Shown here piece after piece: positions 2,593 through 35,915 of a stretch of 42,750 bases of DNA. The DNA is taken from IMG/VR virus record IMGVR_UViG_2703718822_000008, positions 1-42,750 of that record, one strand, 5' to 3'. How positions within the stretch are numbered: position 1 is the stretch's first letter; each line of letters opens with the position of its first letter. The notes under the pieces are model-generated. The model worked only from the letters and a program-made list of their open reading frames with translations, had not been told where the DNA came from and made no database searches. Made by a program: the position numbers and the translations under genes. This stretch comes from a virus (Duplodnaviria > Heunggongvirae > Uroviricota > Caudoviricetes).

Positions 2593-4920
2593 TCATAATA
2601 CAAGTTTTACCACCTGAGTATCCAGATATGGTTTGCGAAACTGGACTTCCTGTTGTTGGGAAAATGGTGATTTCACCCCCCCCTTCAATACTCTAACTTT
2701 GCCCGTAACATCAACCGATGAACTTGAAACAGACGTGAGAGATCCGTTGGTCATTGTATAAAAGTTTATAGTTCCTGTTGCTGTTCTGCTTACACCACAT
2801 CCTGATTTTTGCTTCTGTTTATAGTTAAACAATACCAGCAGGCCAACAGGCATTGACTCAAGCTCAACTGCTGTAGACTGGTAGGTCTTACTGCCGTTGC
2901 TCATGTCAGGAGCCTCATCGTCTGGATCAGAAAAATTATACCCAAGAGTTAAATCATTAACCGTGGCATTATTCCCTGTTATTCCTTTGACTTGATTAAC
3001 ACTTAACGGTATGTAATTAAACCCTGCAAAAAGCGGTGTTAACTTTTCTCTAAATAAAAGGCCTGGTGGGTATACTACCGAAGGTGTACCATCATATGTC
3101 ACTGAGATAATATTAAGTCCCTTTTTAAGGGTTCCAATGCGCGTTGTTTGTTTGCCTGTAAATGATGTTAGCCCATTGCTGGCAACTTTACCTGATAGAT
3201 AAGAAGAGTTCCTGATGTCATTGAGAATGACATTGAACTGGTTAACACGATTTGATGAAGTATAAGTTGGGTTATATGGCTCAAATAATGTTACAGAGAT
3301 ATCGCTTGTATCACTCCATACAAAATACCGACAAATAACATTTTCATTTGAAGGCGTAATCCTTCCCCATCCACCAAGCGCATCAAGATAATCACCTCCA
3401 CTTAATATCGAAATTGATGGGTAGTATCTTGTATTTGAAGGGTATCCAATACCAATAAATGAAAGTTGAGTAGTAGGGATTAGGTTCTTATTTTTTACAG
3501 CTGTATAAACGCGCTCTTTTAATACCTCTTTTGCAGCATAAGCACCGATGTATGCATGACCTATCGTTGATGGATGGCTCTGGTCAAAGACAGTGCCGCC
3601 ATCACGTTTGGCAACATCAGATATGGAGTACGCGCCAATATCTGCATAAGCGTCAGTTGTGGCAACTGACAGATCCAGAAACTCAACTTTTTGAAAAAGA
3701 CGCTCGATACGCTTCTTAATGGCTGCCTCCAGAAAAGCCTTTGGCGCATCGTTATTATTTACAGTAACAAAGCATATCGGACAACCATATCCCCATGATT
3801 TTCTAATCAACTTTTCAAACTCATGAAAATACGCTTCAAATCCTATTGTTGGAAGTATTCCATTGTCATTAAAACCAAGGCTTATAAAAAGAACATCAGG
3901 AGCTTTTTTTCCATACGCAGCATTCTGGAAAAATCCATAGTCGAAGTTTTCATAACCCCAACCTGTGGCTAAAGCCTTTCCTGAAGAGGCACAGTTGTAT
4001 CCTTTAAAAATATTTGTTGTACTGTCAGATAGCATGTTCAGGCAATCAGTGAAGATCCTGAACCAGGAATACTTTCCGCCATTGAGGTTGTGGTTGTGGT
4101 TGGTTGAATTAAGATTACCATCGCTATCAGTTGGGTTTGGTTCCCATCCAGAACTATAGGCTCCATCCGTTATAGAATCACCAATGATACCTACATGGCA
4201 ATCTTCTACAGTTGATGGGTAACCCTGCTTATTTGCAAATTTAGCAATTGTTCCAAGAGCAGTAAAATCAGGGCCATTGTTAGATAGACCAACATCAAAA
4301 ACATGCTCATTACCCCATGGATCTCTTGTAAGTATTTTCCCTTCACCTTTTAACTTTGTCACATCATCTTCAGGAAGAAGATTGCATCTTACCGTTATAT
4401 TCCTTGGTATATATACATTTCCTTCTTGTCCAAAAATAATATCTCTGTTATCAGTGTTCAAATCTGAAACAAAACTGGTAACTATTTTTCCATTATTAAT
4501 CTCATCAAGCGAGTCACCAACAGTTGACGTTGCATAACCAACAATGTATGCACCATTTGCAGATGAAAGTTGATAACTAAATTGATCTGGATCGTACTTC
4601 AGCACATTCGGGAAATAGAACTGCTGCACACCATACGCATCATATACAGCCATAGAATGGCCTTGCACAGTTACGAACTTGGCAATCTGCCCGTTATATA
4701 CCGGGTAACCAGCAGCGTTAATGATGATTGGTTGCGAAACAGGAACGTGAGAACCGTCTTCGTTTTCCACATAAACCTGAATTTGGTTTTCAGGATTTAC
4801 CGGGTCCGTGTCAATTTTACCAATATAAATTTTTCCATTAGCTACGGCTTTAAAAGAACGAGCCATAGTGAAGAGTTGCGAAGGCATTCCTATAACCACA
4901 TTTGGTGTTATATTAGTCAT
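2593..4920 (-). CDS. Tailspike protein: P22 gp9-type head-binding N-terminal domain with an SGNH/GDSL esterase-like central domain
   Basis: From the ATG at 4920 the N-terminus MTNITPNVV...[38 protein letters not shown] closely matches the recalled P22 tailspike head-binding domain; SGNH blocks GDSITDG (nt 4174-4182), GFNDNG and DQSHP follow; last gene of the virion module; the track ORF extends upstream to 5022 but the homology start is 4920. Confidence 0.8.
2676..2683 (-). repeat. G8 homopolymer (C8 on the plus strand) inside the 3' end of the tailspike coding sequence
   Basis: Direct reading: tttcaccccccccttc; lies 27 codons before the annotated stop. Confidence 0.9.
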
Positions 4921-5111
4921 GTGTGCAATCCTATTAGACATGCTTGATAAAGAAGATAATGGAGTTAATGCTACAAATGACGCTATTGATTTGAAAAATG
5001 ATCTTCTATTCATATTAAACACACATTAATGCAGAAAATTTGCATTAATGTAAGCAAAAAGCTCAATCAACTCCATAGCAATTTAATTTTTAACTGTAAT
5101 TTACATCTACA

Positions 5112-7505
5112 TTACCATGACAACGCATCAGACTTGGCACCCTGAGTCAGGGCGTTAATGACCTTTTGCGCCTGCTGCATGGCTTTCTCAAACGCTGTTG
5201 ATCCGCGTGGGGTATTTGCCATTCGGAGCATTGCATTTCTGAATGGTTCGCTCTCATAGGCGCGAGTAAGAAGTCCGTAGCTTACCGCTGCGCCAGTTGT
5301 CGCCGGGTTCATTGCCGTCCCGTACCCGATAATGAACGGGATGGTTTGCTGCCCTGTTGGTGTTGTTACTGCCGCTTTTGCAGCCTGTTGCGTGGATTGC
5401 AGGTAGTTTTTCAATCCTTTCAGATAAGCAGCATCCTGACCTTTAAATGTGATGCCAGTCTGGTTTTGCAGGATGTTAAGCTGTCGAAGGAACTGGTCAG
5501 GGGAACCACCTGATTTCTCCATCGCCTTTCCAATGATGCCATTGCGCATTTGCGCCCTGCCAACACGACCAACTGAGTTATACAGTGTCTTAATTTCAGA
5601 TTTGTTCTTGCTGAATAGCATGTTATTGACAACTTCCGGCGTCAGATCGCCTTTCATGAGAACATTCTTCAGCCTGGTATTCTTGAGTTTCGCCGCTTCG
5701 TCAGCGTAGACGGCATTGGCCTGCTGATATTTACGGAGAGTATCGTTGCCAAGATTCTGACCAATGGCACCATTGATATCGTCGGTCATTGCCTTGTAAA
5801 CGCGCTGAATGGCAGCATCGGAACGGTTTGGTAACACTGGTCGCTCCCCCTTCACGTCCATTCTGAACTGGCTGCGCAGATCTCTTAATTGCTTCAAATC
5901 CAGATTTACCGGACCATCAGGACCAGCATTGCGAACAAGCTCATCACGATAGGACTGAAGTTTTGAAATAGTCTCGTTATCAGCAACCTTACCAAGCTTC
6001 TGCAGGTTAGATATTTCTGTATCAATCTGCTGAATTGCTCGCGCAGGCTGAATGTTTACTCCAGCCATAGCATTCTGAACCTGCTCCAGTCGATTACCGG
6101 CGGCACGACGAATTCCTGATGTTTTCGCTTTAAGGCTGTCAATAACAACCGCTGGATCATACTCACCGAATTTATCGGCAAATCTCTGCACCAACTGGCT
6201 TCTCGCTTCCTGTTGCGTTGCTCTCATTCCGCTTGTGCCAGCCAGGGGGATATTTTCTGCTGTAGTCTGCGCCATTTTCCCGACGCGGGAAGTAGGCTGT
6301 AACAGGTCTGTGGTGTGCAGAGGAACTCCTTCACGCTCTGCAAACCTGATAGCCTGTTGAGCTTCTGGTGCTATCGAACCACGAACACCACGATAAGCAG
6401 CACCTAATCCACGCCCGGCAGCGTTAATAGCACCGCCAGCCAGCACACCAACGCCTAAATCGGTGGCGAGTGCTTCCGCATCATCTTTCGCACTGTTTGC
6501 AGCAAGTGATCCAACTGCGTTTTCTGCTAGAAGGCGAGTTGCCCCCTGAGCAATTCGACCAGCAAGTGTTGGTGCCTGTGTTGCCGCTCTCTCAACGCCA
6601 GCAGGAGTGAGGTAAGGCAATGCTTCAGCAAATACCCTTCCCTCTGTCGTTTGTGGAGTCAGCGCGCCTTGCTGAAGGCCAAAGTCCTGCTCTAATCCCT
6701 GCGTTGTTACTCGTGGTGCTGGTTGATATGTACCATCGCCAATGCCGAGTTTACCGCCAGCCCAAGCCGCCGCGCTTGTTACAGCATCAGTGAGTTCAGC
6801 AGGTATGTTCGCTACGTTGATTCCTGCCTGTAGTAAGCCGCGCCCGGTTTCAGCAAGTCCATTACCAAGGTCAGACATTATTCCGCCTTGCTGCTGAACA
6901 GGTTTCGGTGCGACAGAACTTACGGGTTGAGGTGGCTGCTGACTGGCTGCCTGCTGCTCAATCTGAGCAAATGGATTATTTGGGTCTGACTGCACGCCTG
7001 ATGCCGATACTTGTTCGGATGACTGTGCTTCCAGTTGTGCAAACGGGTTGTTAGGGTCTTGCTGAGGATGTACCTTTGCAGAGGTGGCGCGCTGTTCGAC
7101 TGTTGAGTCTGTCACCGGGTCACCCGCCCATTGAGCAAAGCGATCATCAACGTAACCGCGGCCTTCAGGTCCTGGCGTATATTCACCACGCTTTGCCTTC
7201 ATAACGTTGCCGGGACCGTCGTGATAAGCCTGAAGAGCGTCACGCCAGTTACCAAACTGCTGGTACATCTTTGCCAGATAGCGCGCGCCAGCGTCAGCCT
7301 GATATTCGGGGTTTTGCATTTGCTCATCGGTATAACCCATATCACGCCATGTCCCAGGCATGACCTGAGTCAATCCTACAGCCCCGGCGGAGCTTACTGC
7401 GGCAGGGTTGTAAGAAGACTCCTTGGCACCCAGTGCAGTCATCAACCCTTCTGGCACACCGTAACGTGCGCCAGCCTGCTCTAACAAATCACGGTAATTA
7501 GCCAT
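5112..7505 (-). CDS. Ejection/internal virion protein (P22 gp16 position) with N-terminal lytic transglycosylase (SLT) domain
   Basis: 797-aa ORF; N-terminus ...ALGAKESSYNPAAVSSAGAVGLTQVMPGTW... resembles the SLT catalytic region; located between the gp20-like gene and the tailspike. Confidence 0.6.
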   Translation of the reverse strand: MANYRDLLEQAGARYGVPEGLMTALGAKESSYNPAAVSSAGAVGLTQVMPGTWRDMGYTDEQMQNPEYQADAGARYLAKMYQQFGNWRDALQAYHDGPGNVMKAKRGEYTPGPEGRGYVDDRFAQWAGDPVTDSTVEQRATSAKVHPQQDPNNPFAQLEAQSSEQVSASGVQSDPNNPFAQIEQQAASQQPPQPVSSVAPKPVQQQGGIMSDLGNGLAETGRGLLQAGINVANIPAELTDAVTSAAAWAGGKLGIGDGTYQPAPRVTTQGLEQDFGLQQGALTPQTTEGRVFAEALPYLTPAGVERAATQAPTLAGRIAQGATRLLAENAVGSLAANSAKDDAEALATDLGVGVLAGGAINAAGRGLGAAYRGVRGSIAPEAQQAIRFAEREGVPLHTTDLLQPTSRVGKMAQTTAENIPLAGTSGMRATQQEARSQLVQRFADKFGEYDPAVVIDSLKAKTSGIRRAAGNRLEQVQNAMAGVNIQPARAIQQIDTEISNLQKLGKVADNETISKLQSYRDELVRNAGPDGPVNLDLKQLRDLRSQFRMDVKGERPVLPNRSDAAIQRVYKAMTDDINGAIGQNLGNDTLRKYQQANAVYADEAAKLKNTRLKNVLMKGDLTPEVVNNMLFSKNKSEIKTLYNSVGRVGRAQMRNGIIGKAMEKSGGSPDQFLRQLNILQNQTGITFKGQDAAYLKGLKNYLQSTQQAAKAAVTTPTGQQTIPFIIGYGTAMNPATTGAAVSYGLLTRAYESEPFRNAMLRMANTPRGSTAFEKAMQQAQKVINALTQGAKSDALSW

Positions 7506-31617: not shown

Positions 31618-31648
31618 ATGCACTCTCCGTTATTAACCATGAACAAAG

Positions 31649-31712
31649 AATACTACAGGTATTCAAAGCAATCAATACTCAGGGTATTTTTAGTTTAAGT
31701 ACCTTAGCTATT
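31649..31712. promoter_or_regulatory. OR operator cluster: three AATAC-N5-GTATT-type sites (31649-31663, 31674-31688, weaker 31698-31712) overlapping pR and pRM
   Basis: aatactacaggtatt, aatactcagggtatt, agtaccttagctatt; centre-to-centre spacing 25 and 24 bp; located between divergent cro and cI. Confidence 0.65.
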
Positions 31713-31723
31713 AGAATTAAGCT
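31689..31723 (+). promoter_or_regulatory. pRM-like promoter for cI (-10 tagaat at 31712-31717); the cI mRNA is probably leaderless
   Basis: The -10 hexamer ends 6 nt before the cI ATG at 31724; no SD; operator centred about 43 bp upstream of the start, as for lambda OR2/pRM. Confidence 0.45.
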
Positions 31724-32440
31724 ATGGAAAATAAAAAATCACTGACGACAGAACAGCTCGAAGACGCTAAGCGGCTTAAGGCTTTGTATGAGTCAAAAAA
31801 GAAAGAATTGGGAATAACCCAATACTCAATCGCTGATGAACTGGGTATCACCCAAGGAGCGGTAGGGCATTATCTTAATGGCAGAAACGCGCTAAACGTT
31901 GAGGTCGCATCTGGTTTTGCACGTTTGTTGCAAGTCTCAATTGCTGATTTTAGCCAGTCAATTGCTGCCAAGGTTGCAGAACAGGCAGAAAGCCTTAAGA
32001 GCGATGCCAACGTAAGGTATGCAGGGGAATACAGAGCAGGAAAGAGGTATCCGGTGTTAAGCAGTATCCAGGCTGGCTCGTGGTGTGAAGCATGCGAACC
32101 ATACACCATTAAAGACATAGATGTTTGGCTTGAGTCTGACGCGCATATTCAAGGTAATGCGTTCTGGCTTAAAGTGGAAGGTGATTCAATGACGGCACCG
32201 GTTGGGTTAAGCATTCCAGAGGGAACATTCGTTCTTTTCGATACCGGAAGGGAGGCGATCAACGGCAGCTTGGTCATAGCAAAACTTTCTGACTCTAACG
32301 AAGCAACATTCAAGAAGCTGATAATCGACGGCGGAAATAAATACCTCAAGGGACTTAATCCTGCATGGCCTCTCGTGCCAATCAATGGAAACTGCAAGAT
32401 TATAGGCGTTGCAATTGAGACAAAACTAAGGCTGGTTTGA
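31724..32440 (+). CDS. cI: CI prophage repressor (HTH plus S24 LexA-like peptidase domain)
   Basis: 238 aa; N-terminus LTTEQLEDAKRLKALYESKKKELGITQYSIADELGIT resembles lambda CI; C-terminal domain with AFWLKVEGDSMTAP...FKKLI... (Ser/Lys dyad region). Confidence 0.85.
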   Translation: MENKKSLTTEQLEDAKRLKALYESKKKELGITQYSIADELGITQGAVGHYLNGRNALNVEVASGFARLLQVSIADFSQSIAAKVAEQAESLKSDANVRYAGEYRAGKRYPVLSSIQAGSWCEACEPYTIKDIDVWLESDAHIQGNAFWLKVEGDSMTAPVGLSIPEGTFVLFDTGREAINGSLVIAKLSDSNEATFKKLIIDGGNKYLKGLNPAWPLVPINGNCKIIGVAIETKLRLV

Positions 32441-32457
32441 TCACGCAAGGGGCGATT

Positions 32458-32826
32458 ATGGTTGGAACCGCTATAGCAAGCTTTTTTGGGATGTTGGCAA
32501 TCTCGACAATTTACGGCTTAGCGCATGCTTTTATTGCGAAATCTCTATCAGAAAAAATAAGCCAGGCTTGGGCGCATAGATCAGCTCGTTTCATGATTCT
32601 GGTGATCATAGCAATACAAGGGATATCTGCATTTATCCTCTATGGATCAAGCTTATACCTATTGTATCAAGGCGCGACATTTACGCCTTACACCAGTGAT
32701 TACGGAACTCTATACGATGGTAGTGAAGACATCACTGTGGCTTGGATCGTCTTTGGTTTATCTATGGCCGTGTCTGTTGTAGCAGACATCATTAAGGTAA
32801 TTCTCGTCTTAACCTTCGCTGACTAA
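32458..32826 (+). CDS. Small 3-TM membrane protein co-transcribed with cI (rex/sieB slot); candidate superinfection-exclusion or abortive-infection protein
   Basis: ATG at 32458 with aagggg SD, 17 nt after the cI stop; three hydrophobic segments; no recognised family. Confidence 0.55.
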   Translation: MVGTAIASFFGMLAISTIYGLAHAFIAKSLSEKISQAWAHRSARFMILVIIAIQGISAFILYGSSLYLLYQGATFTPYTSDYGTLYDGSEDITVAWIVFGLSMAVSVVADIIKVILVLTFAD

Positions 32827-32957
32827 CCTATAATCCCGGCAGCAATAGCTATCGGGATCCACTTCACATATCCCGCATAAAAAGCACTGAACAAGCAGAC
32901 ACCGAAAAAATAAATATCCTTTGTATTCATTTGCTTATCATTATTTCATCAAAAATA

Positions 32958-32999
32958 AATACCTTGGGTATTTACACAATAAAATACCTACAGTATTCT
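32958..32999 (+). promoter_or_regulatory. OL operators (aataccttgggtatt 32958-32972; aatacctacagtatt 32983-32997) overlapping the pL promoter (-35 tttaca 32971-32976, -10 tattct 32994-32999)
   Basis: Same AATAC-N5-GTATT motif and 25-bp spacing as OR; the hexamers have 17-bp spacing and face the N operon. Confidence 0.6.
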
Positions 33000-33044
33000 T
33001 TAGCCATCAGCAGGACGCTGGTAGCCAAACGGAACAGATTGGCA

Positions 33045-33086
33045 GGCTCTTTAACATTGATGGGATTGTCCCGCCGAAATGCGGGA
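33045..33086 (+). promoter_or_regulatory. nutL: boxA-like (ggctctttaa) plus boxB hairpin (tcccgccgaaatgcggga)
   Basis: About 45 nt downstream of pL; boxB is identical to the nutR copy. Confidence 0.6.
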
Positions 33087-33397
33087 ACCAAAGAGTAGTT
33101 GGCTTTGGGGTGACGTGAAGTGCAGCTGCACGACGGCAACCGGAAGATAAGCACCCGGCGCGTCACCGCCAAAGTCAATTCCATAGGCGAAATGCAGCCG
33201 CCAAACACAGCCAATGCTGCACATGCAACAGGAGGATTTATGTGAATGCATAACTTCAAAACCGAGGTTAATTAAATCTCTCGATCCGAGCATTGACCTA
33301 TTAGGTGGCGAGATGCTCTTTCTGCCCCTCAGTTCGAGGGGCCAGAAACCACTTTGCAATCACTATCAATTCCAAAGTTGTTTCATCGGAGGTCAAC

Positions 33398-33670
33398 ATG
33401 ACAGTAGTCATTACATATCTGGCTGACGATAACGCCAGAAATCGCCGCAGAGCACGCAGACAGGCTCAACGTGAACAGGCAATGCAAGAGCAGCGACTGA
33501 CGCGAAAAATTGCGCTAAAGCTCTCTGGTTGCGTCAGAGCAGATAAAGCAGCATCACTCGGAAGCCTTCGCTGTAAGGAAGAAGATGAACGCAGTGGAAG
33601 TATTTGCCTGCCAAACGTAGCTCTTTACGCGGCAGGATACCGGAAATCAAAACAACTGACAGCGAGGTAA
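33398..33670 (+). CDS. N: Antitermination protein N (P22 gene 24-like)
   Basis: From the ATG at 33398 (GGAGG SD): MTVVITYLADDNARNRRRARRQAQ... (arginine-rich motif) and C-terminus LPNVALYAAGYRKSKQLTAR resembling recalled P22 gp24. Confidence 0.8.
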   Translation: MTVVITYLADDNARNRRRARRQAQREQAMQEQRLTRKIALKLSGCVRADKAASLGSLRCKEEDERSGSICLPNVALYAAGYRKSKQLTAR

Positions 33671-33673
33671 GTG

Positions 33674-33898
33674 ATGAATCAGACATACATTCCATCATGC
33701 TTGAGAAATCTGCCAAAGCAGAAAGCAAAGCCCCGCAAGCAAGCCATAAAGGACGCTAAGTCAGAGGTTATTGATAAAGCAATACAATTGCTCAGGGAGG
33801 AGTTAAGAAGTGGCAAGCTCGAAGGAATGATGATGCCCTATCAGCGCGGATATCTATCGGCGATTAGTAAGTTGGAAGTATTGAAGAGTGAATTATGA
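33674..33898 (+). CDS. Hypothetical early-left protein
   Basis: 74-aa ORF, SD gagg 8 nt upstream, immediately after the N stop. Confidence 0.45.
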   Translation: MNQTYIPSCLRNLPKQKAKPRKQAIKDAKSEVIDKAIQLLREELRSGKLEGMMMPYQRGYLSAISKLEVLKSEL

Positions 33899-34025
33899 AC
33901 TATCTGGAATTTCCGGATGGTTCATTGTTTTGGCAGCAAGCCACAGAGGTGATATATGGAAGAAGAATTTGAAGAGTTCGAAGAGCATCCGCAGGATGTG
34001 ATGGAACAATACCAGGACTATCCTT

Positions 34026-34226
34026 ATGACTACGACTATTGATAAAAATCAATGGTGTGGACAATTCAAGCGATGCAATGGATGCAAGCTGCAATCGGAA
34101 TGCATGGTTAAGCCTGAAGAAATGTTTCCTGTAATGGAGGATGGGAAATATGTCGATAAATGGGCAATACGAACTACGGCAATGATTGCCAGAGAACTTG
34201 GTAAACAGAATAACAAGGCTGCCTGA
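34026..34226 (+). CDS. Small Cys-containing hypothetical early-left protein
   Basis: 66-aa ORF (C..C..C....C cluster); overlapped at its 5' end by a 28-aa acidic mini-ORF (33956-34042). Confidence 0.4.
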   Translation: MTTTIDKNQWCGQFKRCNGCKLQSECMVKPEEMFPVMEDGKYVDKWAIRTTAMIARELGKQNNKAA

Positions 34227-34265
34227 TGGTGGCCTTTATTTTTGGCATAAACAACAGAGGCGAAG

Positions 34266-34601
34266 ATGAAAGAGTTTAATGGCACTCCTGGTAAATGGAG
34301 TTTTTCTCACAGCAGCGCAAGTGACGCAAGCGTAGCTTGCATAGAAATTAATTCATCTGAGTCACTGCATGAAATTGCATATCTCCAGAGCACTCCTTCA
34401 AAAATTGGAGGATACAATCAGACTTCTTTCGATAAAACAATCGCTAATGCCCATCTAATAGCGGCAGCACCAGACCTTCTCGAAGCACTTCAGTTATTAC
34501 TTAAGCAAACCAAAAATAGAGCAACGACAACATATCCAGAATGGTATGGAGCTGTTAATAAAGGTCTCGCAGCAATCAGCAAGGCTCTGGGAGGTGAATG
34601 A
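34266..34601 (+). CDS. Hypothetical early-left protein
   Basis: 111-aa ORF; ATGA overlap with the next ORF. Confidence 0.45.
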   Translation: MKEFNGTPGKWSFSHSSASDASVACIEINSSESLHEIAYLQSTPSKIGGYNQTSFDKTIANAHLIAAAPDLLEALQLLLKQTKNRATTTYPEWYGAVNKGLAAISKALGGE

Positions 34602-34810
34602 TGTGCGAGTTTTATGAAGCAGATATCAAACGCCCAGAAATGGCAAGTGATGCGACATTACGTGATTACTTCGCTGCTAAGGCTATGGCAGCAATAGTGC
34701 GCAGATGGGACGGACATTCCTTTGGCGGTGGACAGAATTCACCACAGTACAAAGAATTAGCAGATGATGCCTACTTTATTGCTGATGCCATGCTCAAAGC
34801 TCGCGAATAA
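34598..34810 (+). CDS. Hypothetical early-left protein
   Basis: 70-aa ORF, translationally coupled to the previous ORF. Confidence 0.45.
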   Translation: MMCEFYEADIKRPEMASDATLRDYFAAKAMAAIVRRWDGHSFGGGQNSPQYKELADDAYFIADAMLKARE

Positions 34811-34903
34811 GCACTGTGTATTCATTCCAACGAGTGAATACACGGAGCAATGTCGCTCGTAACTAAACAGGAGCCGACTTGTTCTGATTATTGGAAATCT
34901 TCT

Positions 34904-34934
34904 TTGCCCTCCAGTGTGAGGGCAATTTTTTTTT
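34904..34934 (+). terminator. Rho-independent terminator within the early-left operon (tL1-like, N-antiterminated)
   Basis: ttgccctc-cagtgt-gagggcaa hairpin followed by T9. Confidence 0.7.
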
Positions 34935-34946
34935 GATGGAGGATAT

Positions 34947-35915
34947 ATGAGTGAAGTAACAGATTTAGTTGTTATTGAAAAAGCAAATGCAATGACTGTA
35001 TTTCAGTCTGCCGACCAGATTGAAGAAATCCTTCAAAAGGTTGAACGTGAAGTTATGTCCTTTGTGCCTGATATCACAACGGCAAAGGGCAGAAAGGAGA
35101 TCGCTTCTCTGGCGTATAAAGTTGCGCAGACGAAAACATATCTCGATGGTCTTGGCAAAGACCTTGTTGCTGAACTGAAGGAAATTCCAAAGCTAATTGA
35201 TGCCAACCGCAAGACAGTGCGTGATCGACTTGATGAGCTGAAAGCCAAGGCGCGCCAGCCTCTTACTGATTATGAGGAAGAACAGGCGCGGATTAAAGCC
35301 GAAGAAGAAGCTAAGGCAGCAGCTGAAGCTCTCGCAAAGCAAATTGAGTCTGACCATGAAATAGCGATTTTGATGGATCGCGAATTTGACCGCCAAAGAG
35401 AAGAGGAAAGACTCAAAGCGGAGCGGGAAAAGCGAGAGCATGAAGAACGCTTAAAAAGAGAAGCTGAAGAGAAAGCCAGAGCAGAAGCCGAAGCAAAGGC
35501 AAAAGCCGAAATTGAAGCAGCAGCAAGGCGAGAAGCAGAAGCTAAGGCCGCAGCGGAACGTGCAGAGCGTGAACGCATTGAAGCCGAGCAACGAGCACAG
35601 CGCGAAGCAAAAGAGGCAGCAGAACGAGCTGAAAGAGAAAAGCATGCGGCAATTGAAGCAGAACGCCGTAAAGCACAGGAGGAGGCAGAACGAATCCGGC
35701 GCGAGGCTGAAGCAAAAGAGCAAGCCAGAATAGCAGAAGAAAAAAGAATCAAGGACGAAGAAGAGCGTAGAGCAAAGGATAAAGCTCACCGGAAAGAAGT
35801 AAATAACAAAATACTTGCTGACCTTATCAAGGTTGGCGCATCAGAAGATGTTGCTAAAAATATCATAACAGCCATCGTAAAAGGCGAGGTATTCGCAACA
35901 AAAATAACCTACTAA
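34947..35915 (+). CDS. Hypothetical protein with a long E/A/K/R-rich charged coiled-coil repeat region
   Basis: 322-aa ORF, GGAGG SD; residues about 110-285 are low-complexity KAEAEAKA/ERAERE repeats. Confidence 0.55.
   Translation: MSEVTDLVVIEKANAMTVFQSADQIEEILQKVEREVMSFVPDITTAKGRKEIASLAYKVAQTKTYLDGLGKDLVAELKEIPKLIDANRKTVRDRLDELKAKARQPLTDYEEEQARIKAEEEAKAAAEALAKQIESDHEIAILMDREFDRQREEERLKAEREKREHEERLKREAEEKARAEAEAKAKAEIEAAARREAEAKAAAERAERERIEAEQRAQREAKEAAERAEREKHAAIEAERRKAQEEAERIRREAEAKEQARIAEEKRIKDEEERRAKDKAHRKEVNNKILADLIKVGASEDVAKNIITAIVKGEVFATKITY

What the first reader, a model, noticed from the sequence alone, without database searches (positions are those of the whole stretch)
32437..32826. 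Uncharacterised 3-TM membrane protein co-transcribed with cI in the rex/sieB position
A 122-aa protein with three predicted transmembrane helices starts 17 nt after the cI stop with a good SD (aagggg) and would be expressed from pRM in the lysogen. This is the slot that lambda uses for rexAB and other lambdoids for sieB or other exclusion and abortive-infection cargo. I do not recognise the sequence as RexB or SieB, so it is a candidate novel lysogen-expressed defence or exclusion factor.
Basis: inference. Interest (0 to 1): 0.6.

Follow-up and report, generated by a model that had tools for sequence, protein, structure and literature searches.

The report
HK620 hkaS: membrane gene behind cI
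The gene is real: a small three-helix inner-membrane protein placed right after the prophage repressor. It has been catalogued since 2001 as hkaS of coliphage HK620, function unknown, so it is an untested candidate phage-exclusion factor rather than a new discovery.

Summary
ATG 32458 to TAA 32826 encodes 122 aa. It starts 17 nt after the cI stop and has a Shine-Dalgarno sequence, AAGGGG. There are three hydrophobic helices.

The gene is not unrecognised. It is hkaS of phage HK620 (99% identical, annotated 'unknown') and belongs to PHROG 6534.

It is an orphan family. There is no Pfam, NCBIfam or PADLOC hit, only two representatives among 1.84 billion proteins, and no similarity to RexB, SieB, SieA or 434 Hex.

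It is a real, constrained gene. dN/dS is 0.14-0.2. All 80 viral-contig copies are intact, with pN/pS of 0.34 against 0.04 for cI.

It is locked into the HK620-type immunity cassette. 146 of 5,426 complete E. coli genomes carry it, the same number as carry this cI, and all 146 hold the contiguous block. Homologues 52-83% identical from Salmonella, Hafnia and a metagenomic sample also sit 17-20 nt after a cI, whatever the flanking modules.

Each lineage has a different stem-loop after the stop codon. Predicted topology is N-out/C-in, with a conserved basic cytoplasmic loop and a variable acidic periplasmic loop.

Expression from pRM and a defence role remain inference. No experiment or paper addresses its function.

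The parts
31649..31712 (.). OR operator cluster (OR1 31649-31663, OR2 31674-31688, OR3 31698-31712), with divergent pR and pRM
   Evidence: Two perfect matches and one 2-mismatch match to AATAC-N5-GTATT. The positions agree with OR1-OR3 in the HK620 record.
31724..32440 (+). cI repressor, HK620 immunity type (238 aa)
   Evidence: HTH_3 plus Peptidase_S24 domains and PHROG 4. It is 100% identical to the mEpX2 repressor and at least 99% identical in 16 phage records; the HK620 record annotates the matching gene as repressor protein cI.
32447..32452 (+). Shine-Dalgarno sequence AAGGGG of hkaS, 5 nt before the ATG
   Evidence: Read from the sequence. An AAGGA or AAGGGG is kept at the same distance in all lineages.
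32458..32826 (+). hkaS: 122-aa three-TM inner-membrane protein, PHROG 6534
32833..32858 (+). Stem-loop 7 nt after the hkaS stop (about 10 pairs, loop AATA). It lacks a U-tract. Candidate 3' end or stabiliser of the cI-hkaS transcript.
   Evidence: The 78-nt stretch containing it folds at -15.3 kcal/mol. A hairpin occurs at the same place in all four lineages with three unrelated sequences, and the Hafnia version carries a G-U to A-U change. No shuffle control was run, and the function is inferred.
32913..32997 (.). OL operator cluster (32913-32927, 32958-32972, 32983-32997), with pL at 32971-32999
   Evidence: Operator matches, a promoter-like site TTTACA-17-TATTCT and the HK620 annotation of pL, OL1 and OL2.
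33398..33670 (+). N antiterminator, first gene of the pL operon and not part of the cassette
   Evidence: PHROG 271. The N type varies: only 30 of 80 related loci share it, whereas cI, hkaS and the stretch after the stop are always together.

Best explanation
hkaS encodes a small polytopic inner-membrane protein that is a fixed passenger of the HK620-type immunity cassette (OR-cI-hkaS-OL). It is most likely translated from the same transcript as cI, from pRM in the lysogen and from pRE during establishment, using its own Shine-Dalgarno sequence 17 nt after the cI stop. The transcript probably ends at the conserved stem-loop or operator region before pL. The predicted topology is N-terminus in the periplasm; TM1; a basic cytoplasmic loop with a short amphipathic helix (KISQAWAHRxARF, the most conserved part); TM2; a short acidic, variable periplasmic loop; and TM3, which carries an invariant Asp110/Lys113 pair and ends at the cytoplasmic face in the invariant ILVLTFAD. 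The most likely job is a lysogen-expressed exclusion function acting at the cytoplasmic membrane against superinfecting phages. On that reading it blocks genome entry in the manner of P22 SieA, HK97 gp15 or T4 Imm, without being related to them. Shown here: a real, constrained gene; membrane architecture; strict linkage to this cI type; no relationship to any characterised family. Inferred: co-transcription, inner-membrane location, topology and the exclusion function.
For: Coding and constraint: dN/dS is 0.135 (window vs Hafnia) and 0.205 (Salmonella vs Hafnia). All 80 viral-contig copies are intact. There are 21 synonymous and 23 nonsynonymous segregating changes, and the substitutions are largely conservative, such as I/V/L/M and A/S/T. 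Membrane protein: three hydrophobic helices. Loop 1 has net charge +3 to +5 and loop 2 has -1 to -4 in every lineage, which gives N-out/C-in by the positive-inside rule. Transcription unit: the gap after cI is 17-20 nt in the diverged lineages and 17-19 nt across the 79 viral-contig loci that contain cI, with a conserved Shine-Dalgarno sequence. No consensus promoter-like or terminator-like site was found between the cI start and the hkaS stop. A stem-loop follows the stop in all four lineages with different sequences. HK620's authors placed the cI-transcript terminator after hkaS. Linkage: 146 genomes carry hkaS, 146 carry this cI, and 146 hold at least 80% of the contiguous 31624-33400 block. 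cI precedes hkaS in all 79 viral contigs that extend far enough upstream, while N matches in only 30 of 80. Homologues 52-83% identical always follow a cI that is 86-95% identical, next to different replication and N modules. The cassette rides in podoviruses (HK620), siphoviruses (HK140, HK630) and Stx2c phages. Precedent: genes on the pRM transcript include lambda rexAB, 933W stk and 434 hex, all with exclusion phenotypes (PMC3564112). [quoted passage not shown] This prophage has no room for a sieA gene (about 90 nt between the injection-protein and tailspike ORFs) and no minus-strand ORF of 90 aa or more in the sieB position after N. The periplasmic loop is the least conserved region (50% mean pairwise identity), as would be expected if it faces incoming phage parts.
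Against: There is no experimental or literature evidence for any phenotype. There is no PADLOC hit and no sequence or profile similarity to RexB, SieB, SieA or Hex. Fold searches return only generic helical bundles. Linkage to cI is partly forced by lying between OR and OL, so it does not show a shared function. Injection blockers such as SieA are specific to a virion type, yet hkaS follows the immunity type and not the virion type. The best-conserved surface is cytoplasmic, which fits a host or cytoplasmic partner at least as well as a periplasmic phage target. Faster evolution than cI (about 4-fold higher dN) may simply be relaxed constraint on TM helices.
Confidence: 0.42

Rival explanations
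1. Abortive-infection effector. HkaS would be a small channel-forming or membrane-depolarising protein, analogous in function to RexB or holin-like proteins. It would stay silent in the lysogen and open when a superinfecting phage perturbs the cell, killing or arresting the cell before progeny are made.
Against: There is no partner sensor gene; RexB needs RexA, and here hkaS is the only gene between cI and OL. With almost no soluble mass, it is hard to see how it would sense infection alone. There is no RexB similarity. It lacks the charged C-terminal tail of holins, since the protein ends at TFAD directly after TM3. There is no PADLOC match to known single-gene Abi proteins.
Confidence: 0.2
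2. Lysogeny housekeeping rather than defence. HkaS would tune prophage stability or host physiology, as 434 Hex stabilises lysogens by limiting RecA-stimulated repressor cleavage. For example, it might link envelope state or a membrane protease or chaperone (FtsH/HflKC, YidC) to the switch, or give the lysogen a stress-tolerance benefit.
For: 434 cI is 52% identical to this cI, and its co-transcribed gene hex affects spontaneous induction about 30-fold (PMC3564112). hkaS has been retained with this cI type through saturating synonymous divergence, which is unlike cargo that is gained and lost. The most conserved parts face the cytoplasm: loop 1 has 9 of 17 invariant residues, and the C-terminal ILVLTFAD is invariant. 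This suggests a conserved cellular or phage-internal partner rather than variable invaders.
Against: Hex is unrelated; it has an N-terminal signal-like sequence and no profile match. A protein that is almost entirely buried in the membrane has little surface with which to act on cI or RecA. Serratia phage OS31, with a cI 71% identical, has no gene in the slot, so this cI family does not need such a helper in general.
Confidence: 0.2
3. A hitchhiker with little or no current function, kept because any DNA between OR and OL travels with cI.
For: The position between the two operator clusters forces co-inheritance. pN/pS is about 8-fold higher than for cI (0.34 vs 0.04). The family is narrow and orphan, and none of 185,579 species-representative genomes carries it.
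Against: dN/dS is well below 1 over long divergence, with 43 invariant residues across lineages that share only 52-61% identity. No nonsense or frameshift allele occurs in 80 copies. The start codon, Shine-Dalgarno sequence, length (122 aa in every lineage) and charge pattern are all conserved. A neutral ORF would have decayed.
Confidence: 0.08

Closest known systems
hkaS of coliphage HK620 (AAK28867, AF335538; Clark et al. 2001 genome record) = PHROG 6534
   Same: It is the same gene: 99.2% protein identity, the same 17-nt spacing after cI, and the same cassette. It is also found in HK140, HK630, mEpX2, HF4s, phi296/phi367 and two Stx2c phages.
   Different: Nothing of substance. The database entries say only 'unknown' or 'hypothetical', and no function has been reported.
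Lambda RexB (with RexA), the cI-cotranscribed exclusion system
   Same: Same genomic slot between cI and OL/pL. Both are small polytopic inner-membrane proteins of a lysogen; that RexB is one is from general knowledge.
   Different: No sequence or profile similarity (hhalign probability 0.7%). RexB has 144 aa and four TMs (general knowledge), against 122 aa and three TMs here. No RexA-like partner gene is present.
P22 SieA, an inner-membrane superinfection exclusion protein
   Same: Prophage-expressed inner-membrane protein with three predicted TMs and no other domain. It blocks DNA injection (PMC10883804). It is the best architectural analogue.
   Different: No similarity (hhalign probability 0.3%). 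SieA has 162-164 aa, sits in the immI region next to the ejection-protein genes with its own promoter, and tracks the P22-like virion type. hkaS tracks the immunity type and occurs in siphoviruses as well.
Phage 434 Hex (heterologous exclusion and repressor protection)
   Same: It is the gene immediately after a related cI (52% identity) on the pRM transcript, which has been shown by RT-PCR for 434 (PMC3564112).
   Different: Unrelated protein. In the re-annotated record Hex is 134 aa, has an N-terminal signal-like sequence and is otherwise hydrophilic; hhalign probability is 0.08%. hex overlaps the cI stop, whereas hkaS is separated from it by 17 nt.
933W Stk and other pRM-transcript accessory genes
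   Same: Co-transcribed with cI in the lysogen; it excludes HK97 (cited in PMC3564112).
   Different: Stk is a soluble kinase. It shares neither domains nor architecture with hkaS.

Membership tests
HK620 HkaS / PHROG 6534 | Full-length profile match to the family model | tested here: met
   E = 2.4e-79, residues 1-122 aligned to model positions 1-122 of 122. 99.2% identical to HK620 hkaS.
HK620 HkaS / PHROG 6534 | Position directly after an HK620-type cI, before OL/pL | tested here: met
Lambda RexB | Sequence or profile homology to RexB | tested here: not met
   hhalign probability 0.7%. No RexB PHROG or Pfam hit.
Lambda RexB | Adjacent RexA-like sensor gene | tested here: not met
   hkaS is the only credible gene between cI and OL.
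Lambda RexB | Depolarises the membrane on infection; excludes T4 rII | not testable with these tools
   Needs infection assays.
SieB (P22/lambda) | Sequence or profile homology | tested here: not met
   hhalign probability 0.1% against HK140 SieB.
SieA (P22) | Sequence or profile homology to a SieA type | tested here: not met
   hhalign probability 0.3% against P22 SieA. Only the P22 type was tested; the other two SieA sequence types were not compared directly, but no PHROG other than 6534 matched.
SieA (P22) | Inner-membrane protein with three TM segments | tested here: met
   Prediction only. This is a shared architecture, not evidence of membership.
SieA (P22) | Blocks DNA injection of superinfecting phage | not testable with these tools
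   Needs K+ efflux, DNA entry and plating assays.
434 Hex | Sequence or profile homology | tested here: not met
   hhalign probability 0.08%.
Class I holin | Three TMs, N-out/C-in | tested here: met
   Predicted from hydropathy and loop charges.
Class I holin | Charged cytoplasmic C-terminal tail; location in the lysis cassette | tested here: not met
   The protein ends at ...LVLTFAD right after TM3. The gene lies in the immunity region, about 10 kb from the ORF cluster at 21.2-22.5 kb where a lysis cassette would be expected (those ORFs were not searched against any family library). There is no holin PHROG or Pfam hit.
Known anti-phage defence systems (PADLOC-DB 2.0) | Match to any defence protein model | tested here: not met
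   0 families at E <= 1.

The most novel reading that the evidence does not exclude
HkaS founds a new family of stand-alone, 122-residue membrane defence proteins that are hard-wired into a repressor cassette. On this reading every phage that acquires HK620 immunity also acquires a membrane-level block or abortive trigger against competitors. A buried Asp110/Lys113/Gln54 network would act as a gated ion path or a docking site for phage ejection or tape-measure proteins. A still less conventional reading is that it couples membrane state to cI stability and hence to induction.
Probability: 0.3. Interest if true: 0.55.

Novelty: new variant of a known kind. Interest (0 to 1): 0.33.

Why it matters
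Genes carried on the repressor transcript are among the few prophage genes made in every lysogenic cell. The known examples (rexAB, stk, hex) each revealed a distinct exclusion or stability mechanism. hkaS is present in about 2.7% of complete E. coli genomes, including Stx-converting prophages, and spreads with one immunity type across podoviruses and siphoviruses. If it blocks phage entry or triggers abortive infection, it would be a very small, single-gene, easily tested module. It would affect phage-therapy host range and competition between prophages. If instead it modulates induction, it would bear on Stx-phage release. The gene has been annotated since 2001, and the inference that something after cI may be an exclusion gene is a standard one, so the surprise value is modest until a phenotype is shown.

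Tried and rejected
- **Family libraries.** Pfam gave only sub-threshold noise (Cation_ATPase_C at 17.6 bits against a cutoff of 27.3; TssN). NCBIfam and PADLOC gave nothing.
- **PDB sequence search.** No hit at E <= 10.
- **Distant relatives.** The word-indexed search of 5.8 billion proteins found 12 clusters, all close. An exhaustive profile search of 1.84 billion representatives found only two. A scan of 185,579 species-representative genomes found none.
- **Direct profile comparisons.** RexB, SieB, SieA and Hex were all negative.
- **Literature.** 'hkaS' alone is swamped by a herbarium acronym. 'hkaS' plus 'HK620' returned no papers. Searches on mEpX2, mEp213 and HK620 with exclusion found nothing on this gene.
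- **35-aa hydrophobic antisense ORF (32823..32930).** I considered it as a toxin-like partner and rejected it. It is absent from the Salmonella lineage and from metagenomic locus L006, and the window and HK620 copies differ only by three nonsynonymous changes.
- **Internal promoter for hkaS inside cI (pLIT-like).** The consensus scan found none.
- **Oligomer modelling.** Not possible with the tools.

Full report
**What is there.** The window is an E. coli P22-like prophage, IME10/HK620-like in its virion half, with a lambdoid early region. On the + strand, cI runs 31724..32440. It has HTH_3 plus Peptidase_S24 domains and matches PHROG 4. Seventeen nucleotides later, after AAGGGG at 32447-32452, an ATG at 32458 opens a 122-codon frame that ends in TAA at 32824-32826. 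The ATG is the real start because it and the Shine-Dalgarno sequence are conserved in four diverged lineages, and because the Salmonella lineage has an in-frame TAA just upstream.

The pair is bracketed by the window's only four perfect AATAC-N5-GTATT palindromes, two in OR and two in OL, plus one weaker site in each cluster. pL lies at 32971-32999, and N at 33398..33670. cro and cII are divergent on the other side.

**It is a real gene.** Nei-Gojobori dN/dS is 0.135 between the window and a Hafnia-type copy, and 0.205 between the Salmonella and Hafnia types. More distant pairs are saturated at synonymous sites. In 80 related viral contigs the frame is intact in every copy. There are 36 DNA alleles and 24 protein alleles, and the substitutions are largely conservative, such as I/V/L/M and A/S/T. 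Segregating-site pN/pS is 0.34, against 0.04 for cI in the same loci. The protein is therefore constrained, but much less tightly than the repressor. Over the same divergence its dN is about four times that of cI (0.33 vs 0.083).

**What the protein looks like.** Hydropathy gives three segments, about 1-27, 43-73 and 92-121. AlphaFold2 on a 7-sequence alignment gives mean pLDDT 92 and pTM 0.79. The model has helices at 2-29, 41-73 and 89-121, a short helix at 31-38 and a small hairpin in the 74-88 loop. Loop 1 carries net charge +3 to +5 and loop 2 carries -1 to -4 in every lineage. By the positive-inside rule, the N-terminus and the acidic loop face the periplasm, and the basic loop and C-terminus face the cytoplasm.

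- The cytoplasmic loop (KISQAWAHRxARF) is the most conserved region, at 71% mean pairwise identity.
- The periplasmic loop is the least conserved, at 50%.
- The last eight residues, ILVLTFAD, are invariant.
- TM3 holds an invariant Asp110/Lys113 pair, and TM2 holds an invariant Gln54.
- There is no soluble domain.

**What it is related to.** It is hkaS of coliphage HK620 (AF335538, product 'unknown'), at 99.2% identity. It matches PHROG 6534 ('unknown function') end to end at E = 2.4e-79. The same gene is in HK140, HK630, mEpX2, HF4s, HZ41, phi296/phi367, vB_EcoP-611R6 and two Stx2c-converting phages, always annotated hypothetical.

Beyond that it is an orphan:
- no Pfam, NCBIfam or PADLOC family;
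- no PDB sequence relative;
- 12 clusters at 90% identity among 5.8 billion proteins; the clusters that carry a source name are from E. coli, Hafnia and Salmonella;
- two representatives among 1.84 billion in an exhaustive profile search;
- none in 185,579 species-representative genomes.

Fold searches give only generic helical-bundle hits. Profile comparisons with lambda RexB, HK140 SieB, P22 SieA and 434 Hex are all null, with probabilities of 0.7% or less.

**How it travels.**
- Among 5,426 complete E. coli genomes, 146 carry hkaS and 146 carry this cI.
- All 146 hold at least 80% of the contiguous 31624-33400 block, always on the chromosome.
- In 79 of the 79 viral contigs that extend upstream, cI precedes hkaS with a 17-19 nt gap.
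- The window's N type is present in only 30 of 80.
- Diverged homologues also sit 17-20 nt after a 238-240-aa cI, with Cro divergent. These are a Salmonella type (61% identity), a metagenomic type (52%) and a Hafnia type (83%). Their replication, N and recombination modules differ.
- Their cI proteins remain 86-95% identical, and the operator half-sites are kept.

hkaS has therefore been part of this one immunity type for a long time, while everything outside OR..OL has been exchanged. Two qualifications apply. Any DNA between OR and OL is forced to co-transfer with cI, so linkage alone does not show a functional tie. And more distant cI relatives have other contents in the slot: hex in 434 (cI 52% identical), two unrelated ORFs in Enterobacter phage BHUENT3 (65%), nothing in Serratia phage OS31 (71%), and rexAB in lambda. 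The slot is a cargo site across immunity types, but it is fixed within this one.

**Transcription.** Nothing here measures RNA. The consensus scan finds no terminator-like or promoter-like site on the + strand between the cI start and the hkaS stop. Each of the four lineages has a stable stem-loop a few nucleotides after the hkaS stop, built from three unrelated sequences. The window's is at 32833-32858, and the 78-nt stretch containing it folds at -15.3 kcal/mol. None has a U-tract. The HK620 depositors placed 'tIMM; termination of cI transcript' after hkaS. For the related 434 cassette, RT-PCR showed that the pRM transcript runs through the gene after cI (PMC3564112). Co-transcription from pRM, and from pRE during establishment, is therefore the simplest reading, but it remains an inference.

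**Mechanism.** I put most weight (about 0.4) on a lysogen-expressed, membrane-level exclusion function. Four points support it:
- it is an inner-membrane protein made with the repressor;
- it sits in a slot whose characterised occupants (rexAB, stk, hex) all exclude other phages;
- its architecture resembles the three-TM injection blocker SieA;
- this prophage has no room for a sieA gene and no sizeable ORF in the sieB position.

Two points count against it. Injection blockers usually track the virion type, whereas hkaS tracks the immunity type. And its best-conserved face is cytoplasmic.

The rivals are these:
- An abortive-infection channel (about 0.2). The buried Asp/Lys/Gln residues and holin-like topology favour it. 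The lack of any sensor partner and of a holin-type C-terminal tail count against it.
- A lysogeny or host-physiology role analogous to Hex (about 0.2). Long retention with cI and the conserved cytoplasmic loop favour it. The protein being almost wholly buried counts against it, as does a related cI in phage OS31 managing without any such gene.
- A functionless hitchhiker (under 0.1). The selection data contradict this.

**Novelty and verdict.** The gene is already in the databases as a named protein of unknown function. No homology links it to any characterised system. If it proves to be an exclusion factor, it would be a new protein family doing a known kind of job, which is why I rate it 'new variant of a known kind'.

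The new points from this check are:
- its identity as hkaS;
- its orphan status at the scale of billions of sequences;
- purifying selection on the gene;
- strict and long-standing coupling to one cI type across virion types;
- the conserved topology and invariant membrane-embedded charges;
- a stem-loop after the stop in every lineage.

Interest is moderate to low until a phenotype is shown.

Noticed in passing
window 32823..32930 (- strand): A 35-aa hydrophobic ORF (MNTKDIYFFGVCLFSAFYAGYVKWIPIAIAAGIIG) runs convergent with hkaS and overlaps its stop codon. It is absent from the Salmonella lineage and from metagenomic locus L006. The window and HK620 copies differ by three changes, all nonsynonymous, one of them Ala to Asp. 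Its ATG lies inside an operator-like site, so it is probably not a gene.
   Followed up: partly
window 32913-32927 (HK620 record: tIMM at about 32908-32938, OL3 at about 32935-32951): AATATCCTTTGTATT fits the AATAC-N5-GTATT operator consensus with one mismatch. An equivalent site is conserved in all four lineages and is a perfect match in L006. The HK620 record labels this stretch a terminator and places OL3 on a neighbouring sequence that does not fit the consensus, so OL3 may be misplaced there.
   Followed up: partly
window about 33180-33380: About 200 bp between nutL and N are shared with HK140 but absent from HK620. HK140 annotates a 41-aa ORF there, equivalent to window 33120..33245.
   Followed up: no
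L013 2170..2886 (Enterobacter phage BHUENT3): A cI whose C-terminal domain is closely similar to the window's but whose N-terminal HTH region differs is followed by two unrelated ORFs. One is 127 aa with two CxxC pairs (Zn-ribbon-like). The other is 109 aa with a coiled-coil region and a C-terminal TM. This is different cargo in the same slot.
   Followed up: no
L011 2109..2513 (lambda imm434 hex): As re-annotated, 434 Hex (134 aa) begins with a hydrophobic, signal-like sequence (MIRIAALLSILLTTSANSEC...). That would place it outside the cytoplasm, which is hard to reconcile with the published in-vitro model of protecting cI from RecA. The record itself notes that the paper inferred the wrong start codon.
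   Followed up: no
window 2593..7505 and 33671..34947: This prophage has only about 90 nt between the 797-aa ORF (5112..7505, in the position of P22 injection gene 16) and the 809-aa ORF (2593..5022, in the tailspike position). That leaves no room for a sieA or immI region. There is no minus-strand ORF of 90 aa or more after N where sieB sits in HK140 and hkaP in HK620. ral is present at 34026..34226.
   Followed up: partly
window 34947..35915 (+): A 322-aa protein with a long Glu/Ala/Lys/Arg-rich, coiled-coil-like middle lies in the pL operon. It matches PHROGs 1376, 21365 and 17211, all of unknown function.
   Followed up: no
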